From NCBI GenBank assembly GCA_001767955.1, contig MEMO01000016.1:39404-103403 (forward strand): a DNA stretch of 64,000 nucleotides, given 5' to 3'. Under the pieces are notes generated by a model. It was not told where the DNA came from. It saw only the letters and a program-made list of their open reading frames with translations, and did not search any database. Positions 1,417 to 56,425 of this stretch are shown one piece after another. The translations under genes and the position numbers were made by a program. How positions within the stretch are numbered: position 1 is the stretch's first letter; each line of letters starts with the position of its first letter. The stretch comes from Alphaproteobacteria bacterium RIFCSPLOWO2_01_FULL_40_26 (lineage in GTDB: Bacteria > Pseudomonadota > Alphaproteobacteria > Rickettsiales > UBA1997).

Positions 1417-2307
1417 TCAAATAGACTTCCCCTGCAAAAATAGTTCACGGGTTTTGATGGCTTTGGCAAAGCGCGAGAAAGCGAAGAGATAGCTGTAGAT
1501 CAGGCCGTTAAAGCCATAGATGAAATAGCGGCGCACGAAATAGGCTTTAAAAAAAGCAAAGATCGGGATGAAAAAAATTTTTAAAATTGACGGGTATTTG
1601 TCTTTCCTGAAAGCGTCATTTGCCTGCATTTGTGAATAGGAATTTATTTTCTCGATCCAGTGTGAGTAGGAGCGGAAGGATTGGTGGTGGATGATGTTTT
1701 TAAGTTGGAGGATCGTGCCTCGTGCCTCGTGCCTCGTGCTTCGTGGATTAAAATTACCGAAGCACGAAGCACGAAGCACGAAGCACGAAACATTCCAGAC
1801 ACAAAATTTTGTATAACAACCCTTTCCGGCATGGTTTGTTTCTTTCAGCATGACCGAATCATGCACCGAACTGTTTTTGAATCCGGCCAGATCGCAGTTG
1901 TAAAGGCGAAACTGATTGTAGTAATAAGCCCATTTTTTTGGCTTTTTTTCCTGTGGAAATTTATTGACGATTTTGATGCGAAATCCCGCTACATCATCGG
2001 CGATTTTTCCAGAAAAAATTTCTTTAATCTCCGCACATAATTCCTGCGAAATTTCTTCATCGGCATCAATGTTCAAAATCCATTTATTGCGACATTTCGA
2101 TTCACCAAAAATTTTCTGTTGGCCATAACCTTTCCATTCGTTGAACATCACTTTTGCACCGGCCTGAATGGCTGTTTCACAGGTTCTATCATTGCTTCCA
2201 GAATCAACCACCAGAATTTCATCAGCGATTTCTTTTGCCGCATTGATTACGGAAGCAATGCGATTGGCTTCATTTTTGGTTATGATAAAAATTGAAATCG
2301 GAATCAT
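1417..2307 (-). CDS. family 2 glycosyltransferase carrying an in-frame palindromic-repeat insertion
   Basis: GT2 N-terminal pattern: IFIITKNEANRI, VVDSGSNDRT, NIDADE. The segment GCYTKFCVWNVSCFVLRASCFGNFNPRSTRHEARG is encoded by repeat A1. Confidence 0.85.
   Translation of the reverse strand: MIPISIFIITKNEANRIASVINAAKEIADEILVVDSGSNDRTCETAIQAGAKVMFNEWKGYGQQKIFGESKCRNKWILNIDADEEISQELCAEIKEIFSGKIADDVAGFRIKIVNKFPQEKKPKKWAYYYNQFRLYNCDLAGFKNSSVHDSVMLKETNHAGKGCYTKFCVWNVSCFVLRASCFGNFNPRSTRHEARGTILQLKNIIHHQSFRSYSHWIEKINSYSQMQANDAFRKDKYPSILKIFFIPIFAFFKAYFVRRYFIYGFNGLIYSYLFAFSRFAKAIKTRELFLQGKSI
1690..1820. repeat. palindromic repeat family A, copy A1 (GTGCYTC heptad hairpin), inside the GT2 gene
   Basis: Arms tcgtgcctcgtgcctcgtgcctcgtgcttcgtgg / cgaagcacgaagcacgaagcacgaagcacga around loop attaaaattacc. 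The outer arm agacacaaaattttgtataacaac matches copy A2. Boundaries approximate. Confidence 0.85.
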
Positions 2308-2314
2308 AAATTGG

Positions 2315-2441
2315 GTTGTTCTTAAAATCTTGTGTCTTTACTCGTGCTTCGTGCTTCGTGCTTCGTGGTTTAAAATTACCGGAGCACGATGCACGATGCA
2401 CGAAGCACGAAATTTGCCAGACACAAAATTTGCATAACAAC
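2315..2441. repeat. palindromic repeat family A, copy A2 (intergenic)
   Basis: Full 127-bp palindrome gttgttcttaaaatcttgtgtct...cgtgcttcgtgcttcgtgcttcgtgg..gagcacgatgcacgatgcacgaagcacg...agacacaaaatttgcataacaac, between the divergent GT2 and dsbA-like genes. Confidence 0.9.
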
Positions 2442-2519
2442 TATAAATTGATTGATTTAATTGAGTGCGAAAAATATCTAAAGCCCGTCTCTCTTACGTC
2501 AATTCAAAATCCAAAAGTC

Positions 2520-8132: not shown

Positions 8133-9473
8133 CTACCAACGTATCTCGAATTTTTTGCGTAGGAAAATTGCTGCAGAATTTAGAATAATTAAAAATCCAA
8201 GTAGAACCAAAATTGCTGCTGCGGTTTTTTCGGCGAAACCTGATTCGGGTGAATCTGACCAAAGATAGATTTGCACCGGTAAGACTGATGTGGGATCGGT
8301 AAAATTTTGTGGGATATCGGCGATGAAAGCGACCATGCCAATCATCAAAAGTGGAGCAGTTTCGCCCAAAGCGCGCGAAATCGCCAAAATTGTTCCGGTC
8401 ATAATTCCCGGTACTGCAAGCGGTAAAAGATGATGCAAAGTGATCTGCATTTTTGAAGCGCCAAGAGCTGCAGCTCCATCACGAATTGAGTTTGGAATCG
8501 AACGAATAGTATTGCGTGTAGCGATAATAATAACCGGCAAAACCAGCATGAACAAAGTCATCCCGCCGACTAAAGATGAGGAACGCGGCAAATTCATAAA
8601 TTGCAGATAAACTGTTAATCCAAGCAGGCCGTAGATGATTGATGGAATTGCCGCGAGGTTATTGATGCTGATTTCAATTATGTCGGTAAAACGATTTTTT
8701 GGCGCGAATTCTTCAAGATAAAAGGCGCACATTATGCCAATTGGAAAAGCAAAAATCAGAAAAATTACCATCACCAAAAATGATCCGATCAAGCCAGCGC
8801 CAATGCCGGCAATTTCCGGTTCACGCGAATCGGCAAAAGTAAAAAATTTCCAGTTAAAAACTTTTCTTACCTGATTTTTTGTTTTCAGATCAGAAAGCCA
8901 GCGAATCTGATTGTCATTTAGTGAAGAGATATTTTGGTGTTTAAAAAACATATCGGCTTTTGATGCGGCACTTATCCAGAAAATTTTTAAATCGGGATTT
9001 TTCTTGATTTGTTCTTTTATCTCAAGGTTTGCGGCCTTGCTTACCAATTGATAAAGTGAGTTAATTTCAGCAAGTTTTGTGGCTTCGGGAAATCTTTGTC
9101 TCATTGCGTCTTTTATGGCTTGGCGATAATCATCTTCTTTCACGCTGATTTCCAAGGCGATTTCACTTCGGTAAAAATTGCTTTTGGCAAAAATCATAGC
9201 AAACAAAATCAGTAAAAATGCTAAAGCAAAGCCAACCGAAATCATGCCAAACAGCATAAATCGTGATTCGGCGGCATGACGCTTTTTTAGATTTCCAATT
9301 GTTCTAGAGCCTATCTTCAAATTCATTTGTCTTTGATTTTTTGTAAATTTTTGCTCATTTTTTTGAAGAATTTTTTGCAGTATGTCTAATACAGCTGCAA
9401 AATTCTTCAAAAAAGTCGCTAAAAATTTACAAAAAATCAAAGACAAATGAATTTGAAGACAGGCTCTAGCCAT
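8133..9473 (-). CDS. pstA: phosphate ABC transporter permease PstA (start uncertain: 9473 or 9326)
   Basis: C-terminal permease core (ISRALGETAPLLMIG) follows pstC. The first 49 codons are read through palindromic element G1. ATG 9473 overlaps the pstC stop by 8 nt. An alternative ATG at 9326 lies inside the element. Confidence 0.85.
   Translation of the reverse strand: MARACLQIHLSLIFCKFLATFLKNFAAVLDILQKILQKNEQKFTKNQRQMNLKIGSRTIGNLKKRHAAESRFMLFGMISVGFALAFLLILFAMIFAKSNFYRSEIALEISVKEDDYRQAIKDAMRQRFPEATKLAEINSLYQLVSKAANLEIKEQIKKNPDLKIFWISAASKADMFFKHQNISSLNDNQIRWLSDLKTKNQVRKVFNWKFFTFADSREPEIAGIGAGLIGSFLVMVIFLIFAFPIGIMCAFYLEEFAPKNRFTDIIEISINNLAAIPSIIYGLLGLTVYLQFMNLPRSSSLVGGMTLFMLVLPVIIIATRNTIRSIPNSIRDGAAALGASKMQITLHHLLPLAVPGIMTGTILAISRALGETAPLLMIGMVAFIADIPQNFTDPTSVLPVQIYLWSDSPESGFAEKTAAAILVLLGFLIILNSAAIFLRKKFEIRW
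9304..9469. mobile_element. MITE-like palindrome family G, copy G1
   Basis: Near-perfect 166-bp palindrome ctagagcctatcttcaaattcatttgtctttgattttttgtaaattttt...aaaaatttacaaaaaatcaaagacaaatgaatttgaagacaggctctag, flanked by TA. Confidence 0.85.
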
Positions 9474-15855: not shown

Positions 15856-16073
15856 GGAATTATGGCTTAAGTCTACAAACTCTAAGTAAAACCAATAAAC
15901 TCCACCACACTGTCACCCCGCACTTGTTGCGGGGTCCATTTGGTCGCAACCAATAAAATCAAGTCTTTGACGAGATGGACCCCGCAACAAGTGCGGGGTG
16001 ACAGTGTGGTGAGATTTGTGATTTAGCTTAGAGTCTGTAAATTTGAATCTGGGTTTCTTAAACGTTATTGGGG
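15840..16073. repeat. composite palindrome C1 (family C shell with a family B core)
   Basis: Terminal inverted repeats ccccaataacgcttaag / cttaaacgttattgggg (15840-15856 / 16057-16073). The inner arms are also inverted. Confidence 0.85.
15902..16011. repeat. palindromic repeat family B, copy B1 (core of C1)
   Basis: ccaccacactgtcaccccgcacttgttgcggggtcca ... tggaccccgcaacaagtgcggggtgacagtgtggtg. Each arm is itself a hairpin (ccccgca cttgt tgcgggg). Confidence 0.9.
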
Positions 16074-36480: not shown

Positions 36481-37670
36481 AAAAAATTCAAAACATTAAC
36501 ATGTCCCATCTTGCGCCCGGCAACAATTTTCTCTTTGCCGTAAAGATGAATTTTTGCACGCGGATTTTTGTAAAATTTGTCCAGATTTTTTACTTCATCG
36601 CCGATTAAATTTTTCATAAAACCGCAAGAATGAAATTTTGTTGAACCAAGCGGAAGAGCAGTAATAGCGCGGATCAATTGCTCAAATTGTGAAGTAACCG
36701 CCCCATCCATCGAAAAATGTCCGGAGTTGTGCGGTCTTGGCGCCAACTCATTTACGAGCAATTCACTGCCAACAACAAAAAATTCAACCGCCAAAATTCC
36801 AACCAAATTAATTTCTTTGGCAATTTTTTTTGCCAGGCTTTGCGCCTTTATTCTCAAGCCTTTTGGGATTTGTGCCGGATAAAAACTTTGATCCAAAATG
36901 CCGTTTTTGTGAATGTTGGTTAACGGCTCATAAGCAGCAATTTCACCATTTTTTGAACGCGCAACTATCACCGAAATTTCCGAATCAAATGGACAAAATT
37001 TTTCCAGAATTAATTTTGGACCCCGCAACAAGTGCGGGGTGACAGGCTTCGGAGTGATGCTAGCGCTTGTCACCCCGCACTTGTTGCTTGTCACCCCGCA
37101 CTTGTTGCTTGTCACCCCGCACTTGTTGCTTGTCACCCCGCACTTGTTGCGGGGTCCATCTATCAAACTACTCCAGACTCTATCAGCATCCACAGCGTTT
37201 TTCAAAACAAACTGCCCCTTGCCATCATAACCCATCATGGCGGTTTTTAAAATGGCTTTGCCAAATTTTTTTAGATTTTTTTGCAGAACTTCACGACTTG
37301 GAATTTCAGCATATTCCGTGGCTTTTATGCCAATCGAATTAAGAAAATTTTTTTCCAAAATACGATTTTGTGTGATTTTTAAAATTTGCGGCTTCGGACA
37401 GACTTCAACTTGTGAAGCAAGATAATCAGCGGTTTCAAAAGGGATATTTTCAAATTCAAAAGTGGCGATATCGACCATCTTGCTAAATTTTTTCAGCGCC
37501 ATTTTGTCGGAATAATCAGCATTGATTATTTGATTGGTTACAAAACTCGCCGGAGAATTTTTTTGATCGCTAAACACAACGCTGCGAAAGCCCATCATAT
37601 GCGCATAAAAACAGGTCATGCGTCCCAATTGCCCGCCGCCAATGATACCAATGGTTGTGATTTTTTTCAT
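36477..37670 (-). CDS. purK: N5-carboxyaminoimidazole ribonucleotide synthase carrying an in-frame 47-codon repeat insertion
   Basis: ATG 37670 gives MKKITTIGIIGGGQLGRM. ATP-grasp core GYDGKGQ and C-terminal HLYGK...GRKMGHV. The insert GPRNKCGVTS(NKCGVTS)x3...VTPHLLRGP is encoded by repeat B2. Confidence 0.9.
   Translation of the reverse strand: MKKITTIGIIGGGQLGRMTCFYAHMMGFRSVVFSDQKNSPASFVTNQIINADYSDKMALKKFSKMVDIATFEFENIPFETADYLASQVEVCPKPQILKITQNRILEKNFLNSIGIKATEYAEIPSREVLQKNLKKFGKAILKTAMMGYDGKGQFVLKNAVDADRVWSSLIDGPRNKCGVTSNKCGVTSNKCGVTSNKCGVTSASITPKPVTPHLLRGPKLILEKFCPFDSEISVIVARSKNGEIAAYEPLTNIHKNGILDQSFYPAQIPKGLRIKAQSLAKKIAKEINLVGILAVEFFVVGSELLVNELAPRPHNSGHFSMDGAVTSQFEQLIRAITALPLGSTKFHSCGFMKNLIGDEVKNLDKFYKNPRAKIHLYGKEKIVAGRKMGHVNVLNFL
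37018..37158. repeat. palindromic repeat family B, copy B2, with a 4x 21-nt internal tandem array, inside purK
   Basis: ggaccccgcaacaagtgcggggtgac...(cttgtcaccccgcacttgttg)x4...cggggtcc, about 141 bp (47 codons). Confidence 0.92.
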
Positions 37671-44741: not shown

Positions 44742-44819
44742 TTTTTAATGAATTTTCGCACAACATAAATTCCGATGCAGTAGTTTCAAGATTGCTTTCA
44801 AAGATTTTATTTTTATACT

Positions 44820-44995
44820 CAATCCAGCTGAAGAAGCCGATTTATGACGAAGCATTTTTGAGGAAAAATTGCGACCCCGTCGACGCGCAGCGCGACAAAA
44901 CAGAATGCGGGCTGTATCAAGTGATACAGCCAAATTCTCCGAGCAAATTTTTACCAAAAAGGCGAAGTCAGAAATCGGCTTCTTCAGCTGGATTG
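44820..44995. repeat. palindromic repeat family H, copy H1 (grpE-clpP spacer)
   Basis: Terminal inverted repeat caatccagctgaagaagccgattt / aaatcggcttcttcagctggattg. Internal hairpin gctgtatcaagtgatacagc. Confidence 0.88.
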
Positions 44996-45031
44996 GGTAT
45001 AGAAATTCGCAAAATTAAATTTCACAAATTC

Positions 45032-45658: not shown

Positions 45659-46937
45659 AAAACACGAAAACGAAAAAGAGCTATCATGCTCCTTTTGCGG
45701 CAAAACACAGCATGAAGTAAAAAAACTAATCGCCGGTCCGGCGTCCTTCATCTGCAACGAGTGCGTTGGGTTGAGCATGGATATTTTGCGCGAAGAGCAA
45801 AAAAAATCGCCGCTGAAAAAGCCTGATGGCGGCAAGCCGACTCCGCAGGATATTCTCAAAATTCTCAACGAATATGTCGTTGGCCAAAATCACGCCAAAA
45901 AAGTTTTGTCGGTTGCGGTTTACAATCACTACAAACGCATTGATTCAAGTGGTCTCGTCGCAGCAGATAGCGTCGAGCTGGCCAAATCAAACATTCTGAT
46001 GATTGGGCCAACCGGCTGCGGCAAAACTCTGCTCGCTCAAACTTTGGCGCGGATTCTGGATGTACCTTTTACCATGGCCGACGCCACCTCTCTTACTGAA
46101 GCCGGTTATGTCGGCGACGATGTTGAAAATATCATCGCCAGGCTTTTGCAAGCGGCAAATTATGATATTGAAAAAACCCAGCGCGGCATTGTTTACATTG
46201 ACGAAATTGACAAAATCGCGCGCAAATCAGAAGACAATACGCGTCGCGATATTTCCGGCGAGGGTGTGCAGCAAGGTTTGTTGAAAATCATCGAGGGCAC
46301 GGTTGCTTCCGTTCCGACTCAACCGGGACGCAAAAACTCACAACAGGAATATGTTCAGATTGATACGCGCAACATTCTGTTTATCTGCGCCGGCGCGTTT
46401 TCCGGTCTGGAAAAAATCATCGTGGTCCGCGGCAGCAAATCAACCATCGGCTTTGGCGCCGATGTGCGCGAAAAAGACGATCTCTCGCGCAAGGATATCT
46501 TCACCAAAGTTGAGCCTGATGATCTGATAAAATTCGGCATGATTCCAGAAATTGTCGGCAGATTGCCAATAATTGCTCCGCTTGAAGGCTTAACCGAAGA
46601 GGATTTAACCAGAATTTTATCCGAACCAAAAAATGCGGTCACCAAACAATATCAAAAACTTTTTGCTCTGGACAAAGTCGAGCTGGAATTTGAGGAAGCG
46701 GCACTAAAAGAAATCGCCAAACGCGCAATCGATCGCAAAACCGGCGCCCGCGGGCTTCGCGCTATTGCCGAAAATATTCTGCTTGATGCGATGTTTAACA
46801 TTCCGTCGCAAAAAAATGTCAAATCGATTGCGGTAACAAAAGAATCAATCGCCAAAAACAAGCCTTTGGCCATAACTCATCTGAGCGAAAAGGAGATCGA
46901 GGAAAGAGGAGATAAAAAGGCGATATCGGTTGTTTAG
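45648..46937 (+). CDS. clpX: ATP-dependent Clp protease ATP-binding subunit ClpX
   Basis: Zn finger CSFCGK...CNEC, Walker A GPTGCGKT. Confidence 0.97.
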
Positions 46938-46945
46938 GTGGTTGT

Positions 46946-47109
46946 TAGAGCCTGTCTTAAAACCCAACGTGTCTCGATTTTCCATAAATTTTGAGCGACT
47001 TTTTGGCAAAATTTTGCCGCTGTATTCAACATACTGCAAAAAATTTTGCCAAAAAACGAGCCAAAATTTATGGAAAATCGAGGCGCGGTGGGTTTTAAGA
47101 CAGGCTCTA
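46946..47109. mobile_element. MITE-like palindrome family G, copy G2
   Basis: tagagcctgtcttaaaacccaac..tctcgattttccataaattttg...caaaatttatggaaaatcgag..gtgggttttaagacaggctcta, 164 bp, TA-flanked. Confidence 0.85.
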
Positions 47110-47152
47110 GAGCCTGTGTCTGGAATATTTCGTGCATCGTGCTTCGGTAATA
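47110..47152. repeat. family A-like half element (A3) abutting G2
   Basis: gagcctgtgtctggaatatttcgtgcatcgtgcttcggtaat. It resembles the left arm of A2 (cttgtgtct...tcgtgcttcgtgc). No matching right arm. Confidence 0.55.
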
Positions 47153-48411: not shown

Positions 48412-48913
48412 GAAGATTTTTTCTGATTTTACTCGAAGAAATATCAAAATTTTTTGTGAAAAAAATCGAATATTTTCCCTGTTTTATGAAATTCCACGCA
48501 GGAAATTTTTTAATTTTTAGCAGAAATTTTTCACGCGCAAAAATTGCTATATGAATCATTGAAATTAATTTTTTGAAATTTTTCCAACGGTGAAAACTTT
48601 CCAGATTATCCGCGCCCATTATCCAAAAAAACTCGATATTTTTATATTTAGCTTTGAGTTTTTTGATTAATTTTTCGGTATGAATTTCATCAAAATGATG
48701 AATTTTGAGCCTGGAATGATTCCAAATAAGTTTTTCGCATTTTTGAAGGCGAGACACATAACCCTCATAAATTTTTGCTTCTTTCAGCGGGTTTTGTTTG
48801 GTTGCAATCCACCACACTTGATCAAGGACGAGTTTTTTTATGGCCAAATCGCTGATATAAACATGCCCCTGATGCGGCGGATTAAAGCTACCGCCAAGTA
48901 AACCAACTCTCAT
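48404..48913 (-). CDS. nadD: nicotinate-nucleotide adenylyltransferase
   Basis: GLLGGSFNPPHQGH motif, ISSSKIR near the C-terminus. Confidence 0.88.
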   Translation of the reverse strand: MRVGLLGGSFNPPHQGHVYISDLAIKKLVLDQVWWIATKQNPLKEAKIYEGYVSRLQKCEKLIWNHSRLKIHHFDEIHTEKLIKKLKAKYKNIEFFWIMGADNLESFHRWKNFKKLISMIHIAIFAREKFLLKIKKFPAWNFIKQGKYSIFFTKNFDISSSKIRKNLHE

Positions 48914-48929
48914 CGTAAGCTAAACTTAT

Positions 48930-49000
48930 CGAAGCACGATGCACACTGAACCAAGTTCAGTGCAAGCTGCGCGATGCACGAACATTTTGTATTAATAACC
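48930..49000. repeat. degenerate family A-like copy (A4)
   Basis: cgaagcacgatgcac[actgaaccaagttcagt]gcaagctgcgcgatgcacgaacattttgtattaataac resembles the right arm of A2. Confidence 0.5.
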
Positions 49001-49870: not shown

Positions 49871-50107
49871 CCTCGATAACGCTTAAGAAAATTTGTAATC
49901 ACTTTACTCTCCATGGGTCATTTACCACTCACAAAATATTACCCCTCACAAAATATTACCCCTCACCCCAACCCTCTCCCACAAGGGGAGAGGGAGTAGC
50001 GCCGAATTCGGACTAACTCCCTCTCCCCTTGTGGGAGAGGGTTGGGGTGAGGGGTAATGTTCTTCAAAGAGTAAGGTTGAGAGCATTTTTCCTAAGCGTT
50101 ATTGGGG
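49871..50107. repeat. composite palindrome C2 (family C shell with family D core 49956-50057)
   Basis: Termini cctcgataacgcttaag / cctaagcgttattgggg. Core ttacccctcaccccaaccctctcccacaaggggagagggag...ctccctctccccttgtgggagagggttggggtgaggggtaa. Short tandem ttacccctcacaaaata units on the left arm. Confidence 0.9.
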
Positions 50108-56260: not shown

Positions 56261-56425
56261 TAAGAACCTGTCCTAAATCTTTTTTAACCCCATATTTTGC
56301 CCTGTTTTGGCTTATTTTTTGCCAAAATTTTTCAAAATATGTCCATATATTTATCAAAATTTTGACAAAAAAACGCTCAAAACATGACAAAATCTGTGAT
56401 TAAAAAAGATCTAGGACAGGTTCTA
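56261..56425. mobile_element. MITE-like palindrome family G, copy G3
   Basis: taagaacctgtcctaaatctttttt...aaaaaagatctaggacaggttcta, 165 bp, TA-flanked. It contains the annotated ATG of the AsmA-like gene. Confidence 0.8.

What the first reader, a model, noticed from the sequence alone, without database searches (positions are those of the whole stretch)
1690..1820. Family A heptad hairpin in-frame within a GT2 glycosyltransferase, with stem mismatches that become G-U pairs only on the mRNA strand
About 43 codons (GCYTKFCVWNVSCFVLRASCFGNFNPRSTRHEARGTILQ) of the GT2 gene are encoded by a palindrome built from GTGCYTC heptads. A full intergenic copy lies 500 bp away (2315-2441), and degenerate pieces lie at 47110-47152 and 48930-49000. 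In the genic copy three left-arm heptads read gtgcCtc against right-arm gaagcac. These are C/A mismatches on the plus strand but G-U wobbles on the minus strand, which is the GT2 sense strand. This hints at selection for an RNA hairpin in the mRNA.
Basis: partly seen in the sequence, partly recalled or inferred. Interest (0 to 1): 0.7.

Follow-up and report, generated by a model that had tools for sequence, protein, structure and literature searches.

The report
Mobile hairpin element inside a glycosyltransferase gene
A small mobile palindromic DNA element sits in frame inside a sugar-transferase gene of a groundwater Rickettsiales-like bacterium, adding 36 amino acids to a surface loop; this resembles the known Rickettsia palindromic elements, and its mRNA-only G-U pairs look like one chance variant, not selection.

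Summary
Window 1714-1821 (minus strand) is a 108-nt, 36-codon insert in a GT2 gene. Close orthologs (257-262 aa) lack it, and a relative's syntenic gene shows the empty site.

The insert is a 3'-truncated copy of a 129-bp MITE. The full element has about 25-nt terminal inverted repeats and a stem of 7-nt repeats (GTGCWTC/GAAGCAC). A full copy at 2314-2442 has a perfect 8-bp target-site duplication.

The mRNA strand does fold better (-68.6 vs -57.6 kcal/mol) because of three G-U pairs. I do not read this as selection on the mRNA:
- The three pairs are one variant heptad (GAGGCAC) repeated.
- The same asymmetry appears when the strands are folded as ssDNA.
- Among 21 family cores, 17 fold slightly better on the other strand.
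- Three other in-gene copies (IscS, DsbD, QueC) show no mRNA-strand advantage.

So this is an RPE-like, in-frame MITE insertion: a new family of a known kind.

One extra result: a metagenome contig identical over 1131 nt lacks exactly one heptad in the genic copy, which frameshifts GT2. An upstream copy in another contig also lacks one heptad. The heptad tract is therefore slippage-prone. Ten other predicted slippage alleles were not found.

The parts
1417..2307 (-). GT2 (GT-A fold) glycosyltransferase ORF, 296 aa, host of the insertion
   Evidence: ORF list. Pfam PF00535 at E 2e-17. 704 homologs; close orthologs are 257-262 aa. AF2 model has pLDDT above 90 outside the insert. Best PDB fold matches are SunS/ThuS GT2 enzymes.
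1714..1821 (-). Genic family-A copy: 108 nt = 36 codons (residues 163-198, GCYTKFCVWNVSCFVLRASCFGNFNPRSTRHEARGT). It has the left terminal repeat, both heptad arms and the loop. The right terminal repeat and the target duplication are missing.
   Evidence: Coordinates and translation. Empty site in the ortholog L109. Protein alignment A1. Family alignment. nhmmer E 1.9e-39.
1789..1821 (-). Left terminal inverted repeat of the genic copy (GGTTGTTATACAAAATTTTGTGTCTGGAATGTT)
   Evidence: Aligns with the left termini of the other family-A copies. The terminus is shared with a second element family.
1758..1788 (-). 5' stem arm on the sense strand: 4 x GTGCTTC. One unit is deleted in allele L112.
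1744..1757. AT-rich hairpin loop (sense strand: GGTAATTTTAATCC)
1713..1743 (-). 3' stem arm on the sense strand: GAAGCAC + 3 x GAGGCAC. The three G's make U-G pairs with the 5' arm on the mRNA strand only.
2314..2442 (-). Full-length 129-bp family-A element in the dsbA-GT2 intergenic region. It has the same orientation as the genic copy and ends 8 nt upstream of the GT2 ATG.
   Evidence: The relative's locus L109/L110 has an 85-bp spacer without the element.
2306..2313 (.). Target-site duplication ATAAATTG, copy next to the GT2 start codon (overlaps the AT of the ATG on the minus strand)
   Evidence: Perfect 8/8 direct repeat abutting both termini. Present once in the empty site of L109/L110.
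2443..2450 (.). Target-site duplication ATAAATTG, second copy
47111..47150 (+). Half copy of family A (part of the left terminus, two heptads, start of the loop). It abuts another palindromic element at 46946-47109.
   Evidence: nhmmer E 3e-7.
48913..48999 (-). Degenerate left-half remnant of family A, interrupted by a short hairpin. It lies directly upstream of a minus-strand gene start at about 48913.
   Evidence: nhmmer E 3e-6.

Best explanation
Window 1714-1821 is a 3'-truncated copy of a roughly 129-bp non-autonomous transposable element (a MITE). The full element has terminal inverted repeats (GGTTGTT...AAAATTYTGTGTC), a long stem made of tandem 7-nt units (GTGCWTC pairing with GAAGCAC) and a 14-nt AT-rich loop. 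It makes 8-bp target-site duplications.

The copy landed at a codon boundary in the turn between two beta-strands of a GT2 glycosyltransferase. It is stop-free in that frame, adds exactly 36 codons, and is most likely translated as a disordered surface loop that the enzyme tolerates. This is the behaviour known for Rickettsia palindromic elements.

Shown: the insertion, the family, the terminal repeats and target duplication, and the empty sites. Inferred: translation and tolerance.

The hairpin is a by-product of the element's palindromic build. The three G-U pairs come from one variant heptad (GAGGCAC) that spread within the arm, as heptad variants do in many copies. They are not evidence of selection on mRNA structure.

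The heptad arrays slip. One-heptad deletion alleles exist for both the upstream and the genic copy, and in the genic copy the loss frameshifts GT2.
For: Insertion:
- Close orthologs are 257-262 aa and lack the 36 residues.
- The syntenic relative L109 shows the empty site in DNA.

Mobile family:
- There are 4 loci in the window and at least 20 distinct copies in metagenome contigs.
- No copy was found in 493 kb of loci from relatives.

MITE hallmarks:
- The full copy 2314-2442 is flanked by a perfect 8-bp duplication, and the site is empty in L109/L110.
- 4 of 8 full-length copies have 6-8-bp flanking direct repeats, against 0 of 5000 shuffles.
- The same terminus occurs on a second family that has perfect 8-bp duplications in L045 and L081.

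In-frame invasion of other conserved genes:
- IscS carries a 22-aa insert absent from all PDB homologs.
- DsbD and QueC also carry copies.
- Three of six frames are open through the core.

Permissive loop:
- AF2 gives pLDDT below 50 for residues 159-194, between strands 152-155 and 198-209, and above 90 elsewhere.
- Ortholog P0050 has a different palindromic element in the same loop.

Intact gene: the identical 296-aa product is on at least 23 contigs from several assemblies.

No mRNA-strand bias.

Slippage: L033 has one heptad fewer in the upstream copy. L112 has one fewer in the genic copy and is otherwise 100% identical over 1131 nt.
Against: - The genic copy lacks the right terminal repeat and the target duplication, so its mode of arrival is inferred. 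It could be full insertion followed by deletion, or partial insertion.
- No transposase gene with matching ends was found in the sequence at hand.
- Target duplications are imperfect or absent in some copies (L089, L094). Some flanks resemble each other across loci, which could reflect target preference.
- Translation of the insert and activity of the enzyme are untested.
- The GT2 copy is the most stable sense-strand hairpin of all 21 cores. With n=1, this cannot be proven to be chance.
Confidence: 0.85

Rival explanations
1. One reading: the stem mismatches were selected to be G-U on the sense strand because a stable hairpin in the GT2 mRNA has a function, such as an RNase III site, ribosome pausing between domains, or mRNA stabilisation.
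For: The sense RNA folds 11-12 kcal/mol better than the antisense. The GT2 core is the most stable sense-strand hairpin among 21 copies (-59.1 kcal/mol). The mismatch positions (outer three heptads) match those of the family's common form, but the bases differ so that they pair in RNA.
Against: - There is effectively one event: one variant heptad repeated three times, with a 0.5 prior for either strand.
- There is no strand bias in the family: 17 of 21 cores favour the other strand, and the common mismatch is A.A.
- Three other in-gene copies show no advantage on their mRNA strand.
- The same asymmetry holds for ssDNA.
- No Rfam family matches.
Confidence: 0.07
2. The inserted heptad tract works as a contingency (phase-variation) switch. 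Gain or loss of 7-nt units by slipped-strand mispairing turns the surface-glycan GT2 gene off and on.
For: - The unit is 7 nt, which is not a multiple of 3, and it is repeated 4 times within the ORF.
- A natural allele (L112) is identical over 1131 nt except for the loss of exactly one heptad. It gives a 218-aa truncated product.
- The upstream copy also varies by one heptad in L033.
- Arm lengths differ among family copies.
- From the literature, glycosyltransferases and heptanucleotide tracts are known substrates of phase variation (PMC8262952, PMC4692102).
Against: - Only 1 frameshift contig was seen, against at least 23 intact ones.
- Ten other predicted slippage alleles (+1, +/-2 and +/-3 in the left arm; -1, +1, +/-2 and -3 in the right) are absent from a collection of 15 billion proteins.
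- Four repeats make a short tract.
- Reversibility was not shown, so the allele may simply be a null mutation.
Confidence: 0.1
3. The hairpin core itself, not the element with terminal repeats, is the mobile unit. In this view it is a REP-like hairpin moved as single-stranded DNA by a RAYT or IS200-type enzyme, and the terminal repeats are a separate carrier.
For: The IscS and DsbD copies consist of the heptad core only, without terminal repeats. The same terminal repeats carry a different core in a second family, so the elements are modular. In some copies the core is inverted relative to the termini (L057, L093).
Against: Full copies have terminal repeats plus 8-bp target duplications, which is typical of cut-and-paste transposases. 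The element is 129 bp, not 20-40 bp, and has no GTAG or CGTC tag. Core-only copies can arise by deletion, as at the 3' end of the GT2 copy.
Confidence: 0.1
4. The segment is native GT2 sequence or an assembly artefact, not an insertion.
For: None beyond the intact reading frame.
Against: Orthologs lack it and show a clean empty site. The same sequence is repeated elsewhere in the window and in other contigs. The identical gene is present in at least 23 contigs from NCBI and ENA assemblies.
Confidence: 0.01

Closest known systems
Rickettsia palindromic elements (RPE-1 to RPE-10; Ogata et al. 2000, 2002, as summarised in PMC2229807 and PMC10969869)
   Same: Both are 105-150-bp palindromic elements with long stem-loops and terminal inverted repeats. 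Both occur many times per genome, in intergenic regions and in frame inside conserved housekeeping genes. In both, the encoded peptide sits where the fold tolerates it. The host belongs to the same broad lineage (Rickettsiales-like alphaproteobacterium).
   Different: The host is a free-environment groundwater MAG, not the genus Rickettsia. The stem is built of tandem 7-nt units with periodic A.A mismatches and varies by slippage. Clear 8-bp target duplications and empty sites are seen here, whereas the review table lists TSD as '?' for RPE (PMC2229807). Sequence relatedness to any RPE family was not tested.
Protein-coding palindromic repeats of Wolbachia (Ogata, Suhre and Claverie 2005; cited in PMC2229807, not read here)
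   Same: Palindromic repeats inserted in frame in protein genes of a non-Rickettsia member of Rickettsiales.
   Different: It is a different organism and presumably a different sequence family.
Bacterial MITEs such as Correia/NEMIS, ERIC and RUP (PMC2229807, PMC10969869)
   Same: All are small and AT-rich, with terminal inverted repeats and target-site duplications. Their transcripts fold into long hairpins. Insertions are frequent just upstream of genes, and in-frame fusions occur occasionally.
   Different: The termini differ (GGTTGTT..., not TA-flanked), the duplication is 8 bp, and the stem is a heptad microsatellite. The proportion of in-frame genic copies is high: 4 of about 21 distinct copies.
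Simple-sequence contingency loci with heptanucleotide units (for example the H. influenzae hmw1A promoter repeats, PMC8262952)
   Same: A 7-nt tandem tract whose copy number changes by one unit in natural populations, with an effect on gene expression or reading frame.
   Different: Here the tract was delivered by a mobile element and is half of a hairpin. It has only 4 units, and only one variant allele was seen. Reversible switching was not shown.
Coding palindromes in mitochondrial genes of Nematomorpha (PMC6649704)
   Same: Long inverted repeats embedded in protein-coding sequence, with both arms translated.
   Different: The system is eukaryotic and organellar, with perfect repeats up to 284 bp and no evidence of a MITE with terminal repeats or target duplications. 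Only the abstract was seen.

Membership tests
MITE (miniature inverted-repeat transposable element) | Small (under about 300 bp), with no transposase ORF | tested here: met
   The full copy is 129 bp. Other full copies are 114-145 bp.
MITE (miniature inverted-repeat transposable element) | Terminal inverted repeats | tested here: met
   GGTTGTTATGCAAATTTTGTGTCTGG at one end and GGTTGTTCTTAAAATCTTGTGTCTTT (reverse complement) at the other. At least 15 of 24 terminal nt are complementary in the scripted set.
MITE (miniature inverted-repeat transposable element) | Target-site duplication | tested here: met
   Perfect 8-bp ATAAATTG at 2306-2313 and 2443-2450. 6-8-bp flanking repeats in 4 of 8 family-A copies, against 0 of 5000 shuffles. 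Perfect 8 bp in two copies of the sister family. Imperfect or absent in some copies.
MITE (miniature inverted-repeat transposable element) | Filled versus empty orthologous sites | tested here: met
   L109/L110 (79% aa identity in GT2, same gene order) lack both the upstream and the genic copy and carry the target sequence once.
MITE (miniature inverted-repeat transposable element) | Multiple dispersed copies | tested here: met
   4 loci in 64 kb. At least 20 distinct copies in metagenome contigs.
MITE (miniature inverted-repeat transposable element) | A parent IS with the same termini that encodes the transposase | tested here: inconclusive
   Every occurrence of the terminus in the window and in 70 loci belongs to short elements of family A or B. 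The whole genome was not available.
Rickettsia palindromic elements (RPE) | 100-150-bp palindrome that folds into a long stem-loop | tested here: met
Rickettsia palindromic elements (RPE) | Recurrent in-frame insertion in conserved protein genes at structurally permissive sites | tested here: met
   GT2, IscS, DsbD and QueC. Translation itself was not tested.
Rickettsia palindromic elements (RPE) | Sequence membership in one of the described RPE families, in the genus Rickettsia | not tested
   No RPE sequences were at hand, and the primary paper PMC186582 is not held. The host is a Rifle aquifer MAG whose nearest GT2 relatives are environmental 'Rickettsiales bacterium' MAGs. There was no blastn match in plasmids or phages apart from a Burkholderia heptamer microsatellite.
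REP / BIME elements (RAYT-associated) | 20-40-bp imperfect palindrome with a conserved GTAG or CGTC end tag (PMC3733652 abstract) | tested here: not met
   The element is 129 bp with about 25-nt terminal repeats and an 8-bp target duplication. Neither tag is at its ends.
Structured cis-acting RNA (curated Rfam family, or a structure selected on the transcribed strand) | Match to a curated family | tested here: not met
   Only tRNAs reach the gathering score. In E-value mode the only matches are generic miRNA-precursor hairpin models, at less than half of their thresholds.
Structured cis-acting RNA (curated Rfam family, or a structure selected on the transcribed strand) | Pairing preserved preferentially on the transcribed strand across copies | tested here: not met
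   4 of 21 cores favour the GT2-sense-like strand. 1 of 4 interior genic copies favours its mRNA strand.
Simple-sequence contingency locus (phase variation) | Tandem tract inside the ORF with a unit length that is not a multiple of 3 | tested here: met
   4 x 7 nt in each arm.
Simple-sequence contingency locus (phase variation) | Tract-length alleles within a population that shift the frame | tested here: met
   L112 has one heptad fewer, gives a 218-aa product, and is otherwise 100% identical over 1131 nt.
Simple-sequence contingency locus (phase variation) | Frequent, reversible switching with both states common | tested here: inconclusive
   1 variant contig against at least 23 intact ones. 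Ten other predicted alleles are absent. Read-level data were not available.

The most novel reading that the evidence does not exclude
A mobile element has delivered a slippage-prone heptad tract into the coding sequence, and a second one 8 nt upstream of the start codon, of a glycosyltransferase. This would turn an ordinary gene into a contingency locus. One-heptad changes (7 = 1 mod 3) would switch GT2 off and on. The same property would let out-of-frame insertions of this family be rescued into frame, which would explain why so many copies sit in frame in conserved genes. The G-U variant stem would then matter because a fully paired hairpin promotes slippage or pausing.
Probability: 0.1. 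Interest if true: 0.65.

Novelty: new member of a known kind. Interest (0 to 1): 0.42.

Why it matters
In-frame 'protein-coding palindromes' are best known from Rickettsia, with a report for Wolbachia. How they move has stayed unclear: a 2007 review table lists their target-site duplication as '?'.

This locus shows the same behaviour in an environmental, groundwater Rickettsiales-like lineage, and it comes with clear transposition signatures:
- terminal inverted repeats;
- 8-bp duplications;
- empty sites in a relative.

It also shows a modular build, with one set of termini carrying two different hairpin cores. Two different families have independently hit the same protein loop.

This supports the view that such inserts are ordinary MITE insertions filtered by what the protein tolerates. 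The heptad stem adds a twist, because it is a microsatellite that demonstrably slips and can knock out the host gene.

For the scan itself, the lesson is that G-U asymmetry in a single palindromic repeat copy is not evidence for RNA-level selection unless it is checked across the family.

Tried and rejected
- A profile of the element-encoded peptide was searched against the 5.8-billion protein set to list all host genes. It returned only 3 weak hits, because the query was too short for that database size. One capped search was lost.
- The primary RPE paper (PMC186582) is not held, so RPE features were taken from two reviews.
- Rfam at gathering and at E-value thresholds gave only tRNAs and generic miRNA-like hairpin hits.
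- The promoter and terminator scan of 1300-2700 gave 2 promoter-like sites against 2.5 expected and no terminator. It is uninformative, so whether the upstream copy lies in the GT2 5'UTR remains open.
- blastn against plasmids and phages gave only a Burkholderia heptamer microsatellite that is not a hairpin.
- A strict fixed-offset script for target duplications caught few copies, because termini vary by 1-3 nt. I relied instead on the longest-common-substring test and on the empty sites.
- A search for a parent IS with the same termini found none in the sequence at hand.
- The 'genic copy invariant in 10 loci' result was discarded as evidence of constraint. Those loci were retrieved by exact protein identity, and the cluster look-up then found the frameshift allele.
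- NCBIfam gave no equivalog for the GT2, so no specific substrate is claimed.

Full report
**What is in the sequence**

Window 1713-1788 holds a near-perfect palindrome made of 7-nt units. On the plus strand it reads TCGTGCC x3 + TCGTGCT, then a 14-nt AT-rich loop, then CGAAGCA x4. The heptad run matches 12 times in the window against 0.04 expected by chance.

The palindrome lies inside ORF 1417-2307 on the minus strand. This ORF encodes a 296-aa family-2 glycosyltransferase (PF00535, E 2e-17). The three C/A mismatches on the plus strand are U-G pairs on the minus, sense strand. As RNA, the 136-nt sense segment folds at -68.6 kcal/mol and the antisense at -57.6.

**It is an insertion**

Of 704 homologs, the close ones are 257-262 aa and lack the peptide. 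The only 296-aa hit is the same species. In alignment, the extra residues fall between ...VHDSVMLKETNHAGK and ILQLKNIIHHQSF.

The exact protein is found on at least 23 contigs. These include three NCBI assemblies of the Rifle aquifer study and several ENA assemblies, so this is not an assembly artefact. The nearest relatives of the gene are environmental 'Rickettsiales bacterium' MAGs.

In the closest relative with DNA at hand (L109/L110: same gene order, 79% aa identity), the site is empty. The insert is exactly 108 nt = 36 codons, window 1714-1821, residues 163-198. It starts at a codon boundary with GGTTGTTATAC....

**Anatomy of the element family**

An nhmmer profile finds four family members in the window:
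- the genic copy;
- a full copy at 2314-2442, in the same orientation;
- a half copy at 47111-47150;
- a remnant at 48913-48984.

A scan of metagenome contigs for the heptad hairpin returned 67 loci. About 20 of them are distinct AT-rich copies of this family. Aligned, the full element is about 129 bp. It consists of:
- a left terminus GGTTGTTATRCAAAATTYTGTGTCYGGAATATTT;
- 3-5 heptads GTGCWTC;
- the loop GGTAATTTTAAWCCA;
- 3-5 heptads GAAGCAC;
- a right terminus AAAGACACAAAATTTTAAGAACAAYC.

The full copy in the window is flanked by a perfect 8-bp direct repeat, ATAAATTG (2306-2313 and 2443-2450). The relative's intergenic region lacks the element and carries this target sequence only once. Four of eight full-length copies have 6-8-bp flanking repeats, against 0 of 5000 shuffles.

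The same terminus also flanks a second family with a different core, AGATCCTGAAACAAGTTCAGGATGAC. That family shows perfect 8-bp duplications in L045 and L081. Together these are the hallmarks of a MITE.

The genic copy keeps the left terminus, both arms and the loop. It lacks the right terminus and the duplication. A full insertion would add 137 nt (2 mod 3). The truncated copy adds 108 nt (0 mod 3).

**RPE-like behaviour**

Other copies sit in frame inside conserved genes:
- IscS carries a 22-aa insert at a point where human and bacterial structures run straight through.
- DsbD and QueC also carry copies. In QueC the copy is nested among other repeats and lies in the opposite orientation.

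Three of the six reading frames are open through the core.

The AlphaFold model of the GT2 is confident everywhere (pLDDT above 90) except residues 159-194 (below 50). These form an excursion between strands 152-155 and 198-209. The fold is GT-A, and the nearest solved structures are SunS/ThuS.

An ortholog in another relative (P0050, same gene order) carries a different palindromic element in the very same loop. That element is of the second family type, with 30-nt tandem units. The loop is evidently a permissive site.

This matches the description of Rickettsia palindromic elements. They are 105-146 bp with long stem-loops, inserted in frame in many conserved genes, and tolerated at the protein level (PMC2229807, PMC10969869, PMC1166351).

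**Test of the mRNA-hairpin idea**

I oriented 21 family cores and folded both strands. The strand corresponding to the GT2 mRNA is more stable in 4 cores and the other strand in 17. The mean difference is +1.5 kcal/mol. The GT2 copy (-59.1 vs -47.2) is the lone outlier.

Pairs at the variable heptad position were counted across copies:

| Pair | Count | Note |
|---|---|---|
| A.A | 33 | no strand rescues this mismatch |
| U.A | 27 | standard pair |
| U.G | 3 | all in the GT2 copy |
| C.A or A.C | 2 | favour the opposite strand |

The commonest form is GTGCATC x3 + GTGCTTC / GAAGCAC x4. It has periodic mismatches that neither strand rescues.

The other interior genic copies give mRNA-minus-antisense differences of +0.6 (IscS), +3.4 (DsbD) and -0.2 (QueC). 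Variant heptads typically occur as runs of identical units within one arm, for example GATGCAC x3, GTAGCAC x3 and GTGCGTC x2. The three GAGGCAC units therefore count as about one event, and a transition in a stem gives G-U on either strand with equal odds.

The asymmetry is also present for ssDNA (-33.9 vs -29.6). No Rfam family matches. With a single locus, selection at this copy cannot be formally excluded.

**Heptad slippage**

Among loci retrieved by exact protein identity, one (L033) has one heptad fewer in the upstream copy. That retrieval cannot detect frameshifted genic alleles, so I listed the members of the protein's 90% cluster. The cluster contains a 218-aa and a 70-aa product from one ENA contig.

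The contig (L112) is identical to the window over 1131 nt, except that exactly one GTGCTTC unit of the genic copy is missing. This frameshifts GT2. Ten other predicted slippage alleles are not in the 15-billion-protein collection.

So the tract slips in nature and can inactivate the gene. The data do not show frequent or reversible switching.

**Verdict**

This is an ordinary, though well-documented, case of a MITE inserted in frame. It is a new family of the RPE kind in an environmental Rickettsiales-like bacterium. Its unusual features are a heptad-microsatellite stem and clear transposition signatures. The sense-strand G-U pairs are real, but they are best explained as one propagated variant.

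Noticed in passing
L066 736-797 and 1669-1730 (= L048); also L051/L056, L059, L063, L067, L073, L076: GC-rich soil-metagenome contigs carry hairpins of (GTGCGTC/GTACGTC)n ... (GACGCAC/GACGGAC)n. One copy lies in frame inside a 397-aa membrane-anchored metallophosphoesterase ORF, encoding AVRRASYVVRERLGRLSDARRTTDDAR in the linker. It sits at the same position in several diverged orthologous contigs. A second copy lies just after the stop codon. The heptad identity was forced by my search pattern, so relatedness to family A is unknown.
   Followed up: partly
L108 483-649 (ortholog P0050 of the GT2 gene): A different palindromic element (arms AGATCCCGAAACAAGTTCGGGATGACG, with 30-nt tandem units x3.5) is inserted in frame in the same GT2 loop in a related organism with the same gene order. 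It resembles window elements 15903-16011 and 37017-37158.
   Followed up: partly
window 9304-9469, 46946-47109, 56263-56424, 49939-50074, 44809-45006, 15903-16011, 37017-37158: At least five further families of long palindromic elements (64-78-nt arms, 81-97% complementary) occur in this 64-kb window. 9304-9469 and 46946-47109 share the terminus CTAGAGCCTGTCTT. 37065-37150 has 21-nt tandem units. The genome is unusually rich in such elements.
   Followed up: no
L088 4753-4896, L045 9639-9763, L081 (minus strand), L094 (minus strand): A sister MITE family shares the first 24 nt of the family-A terminus (GGTTGTTCTTAAAATTYTGTGTC) but has a different hairpin core. It has perfect 8-bp target duplications (AGTGAATG, GGCGGATT). 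The elements appear modular: one set of ends, exchangeable cores.
   Followed up: partly
L068 1153-2280: A QueC gene carries about 130 extra residues. They consist of three copies of another repeat (GKSRMRVDFMADEISSLRRFFKHPLSPFR) plus a full family-A element in antisense orientation, all in frame.
   Followed up: partly
L057 1822-1930, L093 2170-2270: In some copies the hairpin core (arms plus loop) is inverted relative to the terminal repeats, as expected if recombination between the arms flips the core.
   Followed up: no
window 2306-2313 / GT2 start codon at 2305-2307: The full upstream copy inserted so that its target duplication overlaps the GT2 ATG. The original upstream region, including any ribosome-binding site or promoter, was pushed 137 bp away. 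GT2 therefore has family-A hairpins both just before its start codon and inside its coding sequence.
   Followed up: partly
window 46931-47150: The half copy of family A directly abuts the palindromic element 46946-47109, and GGTGGTTGT lies on the far side of that element. This may be a nested insertion or a chimeric rearrangement. It was not resolved.
   Followed up: no
L111 (Burkholderia multivorans plasmid NZ_CP020399.1, 247469-247797): A long compound heptamer microsatellite, (GCACGCA)n(GCACGAA)n(GTGCGAA)n(GGCGCATC)n. It is not a hairpin, and it was the only blastn hit of the element in plasmids.
   Followed up: yes
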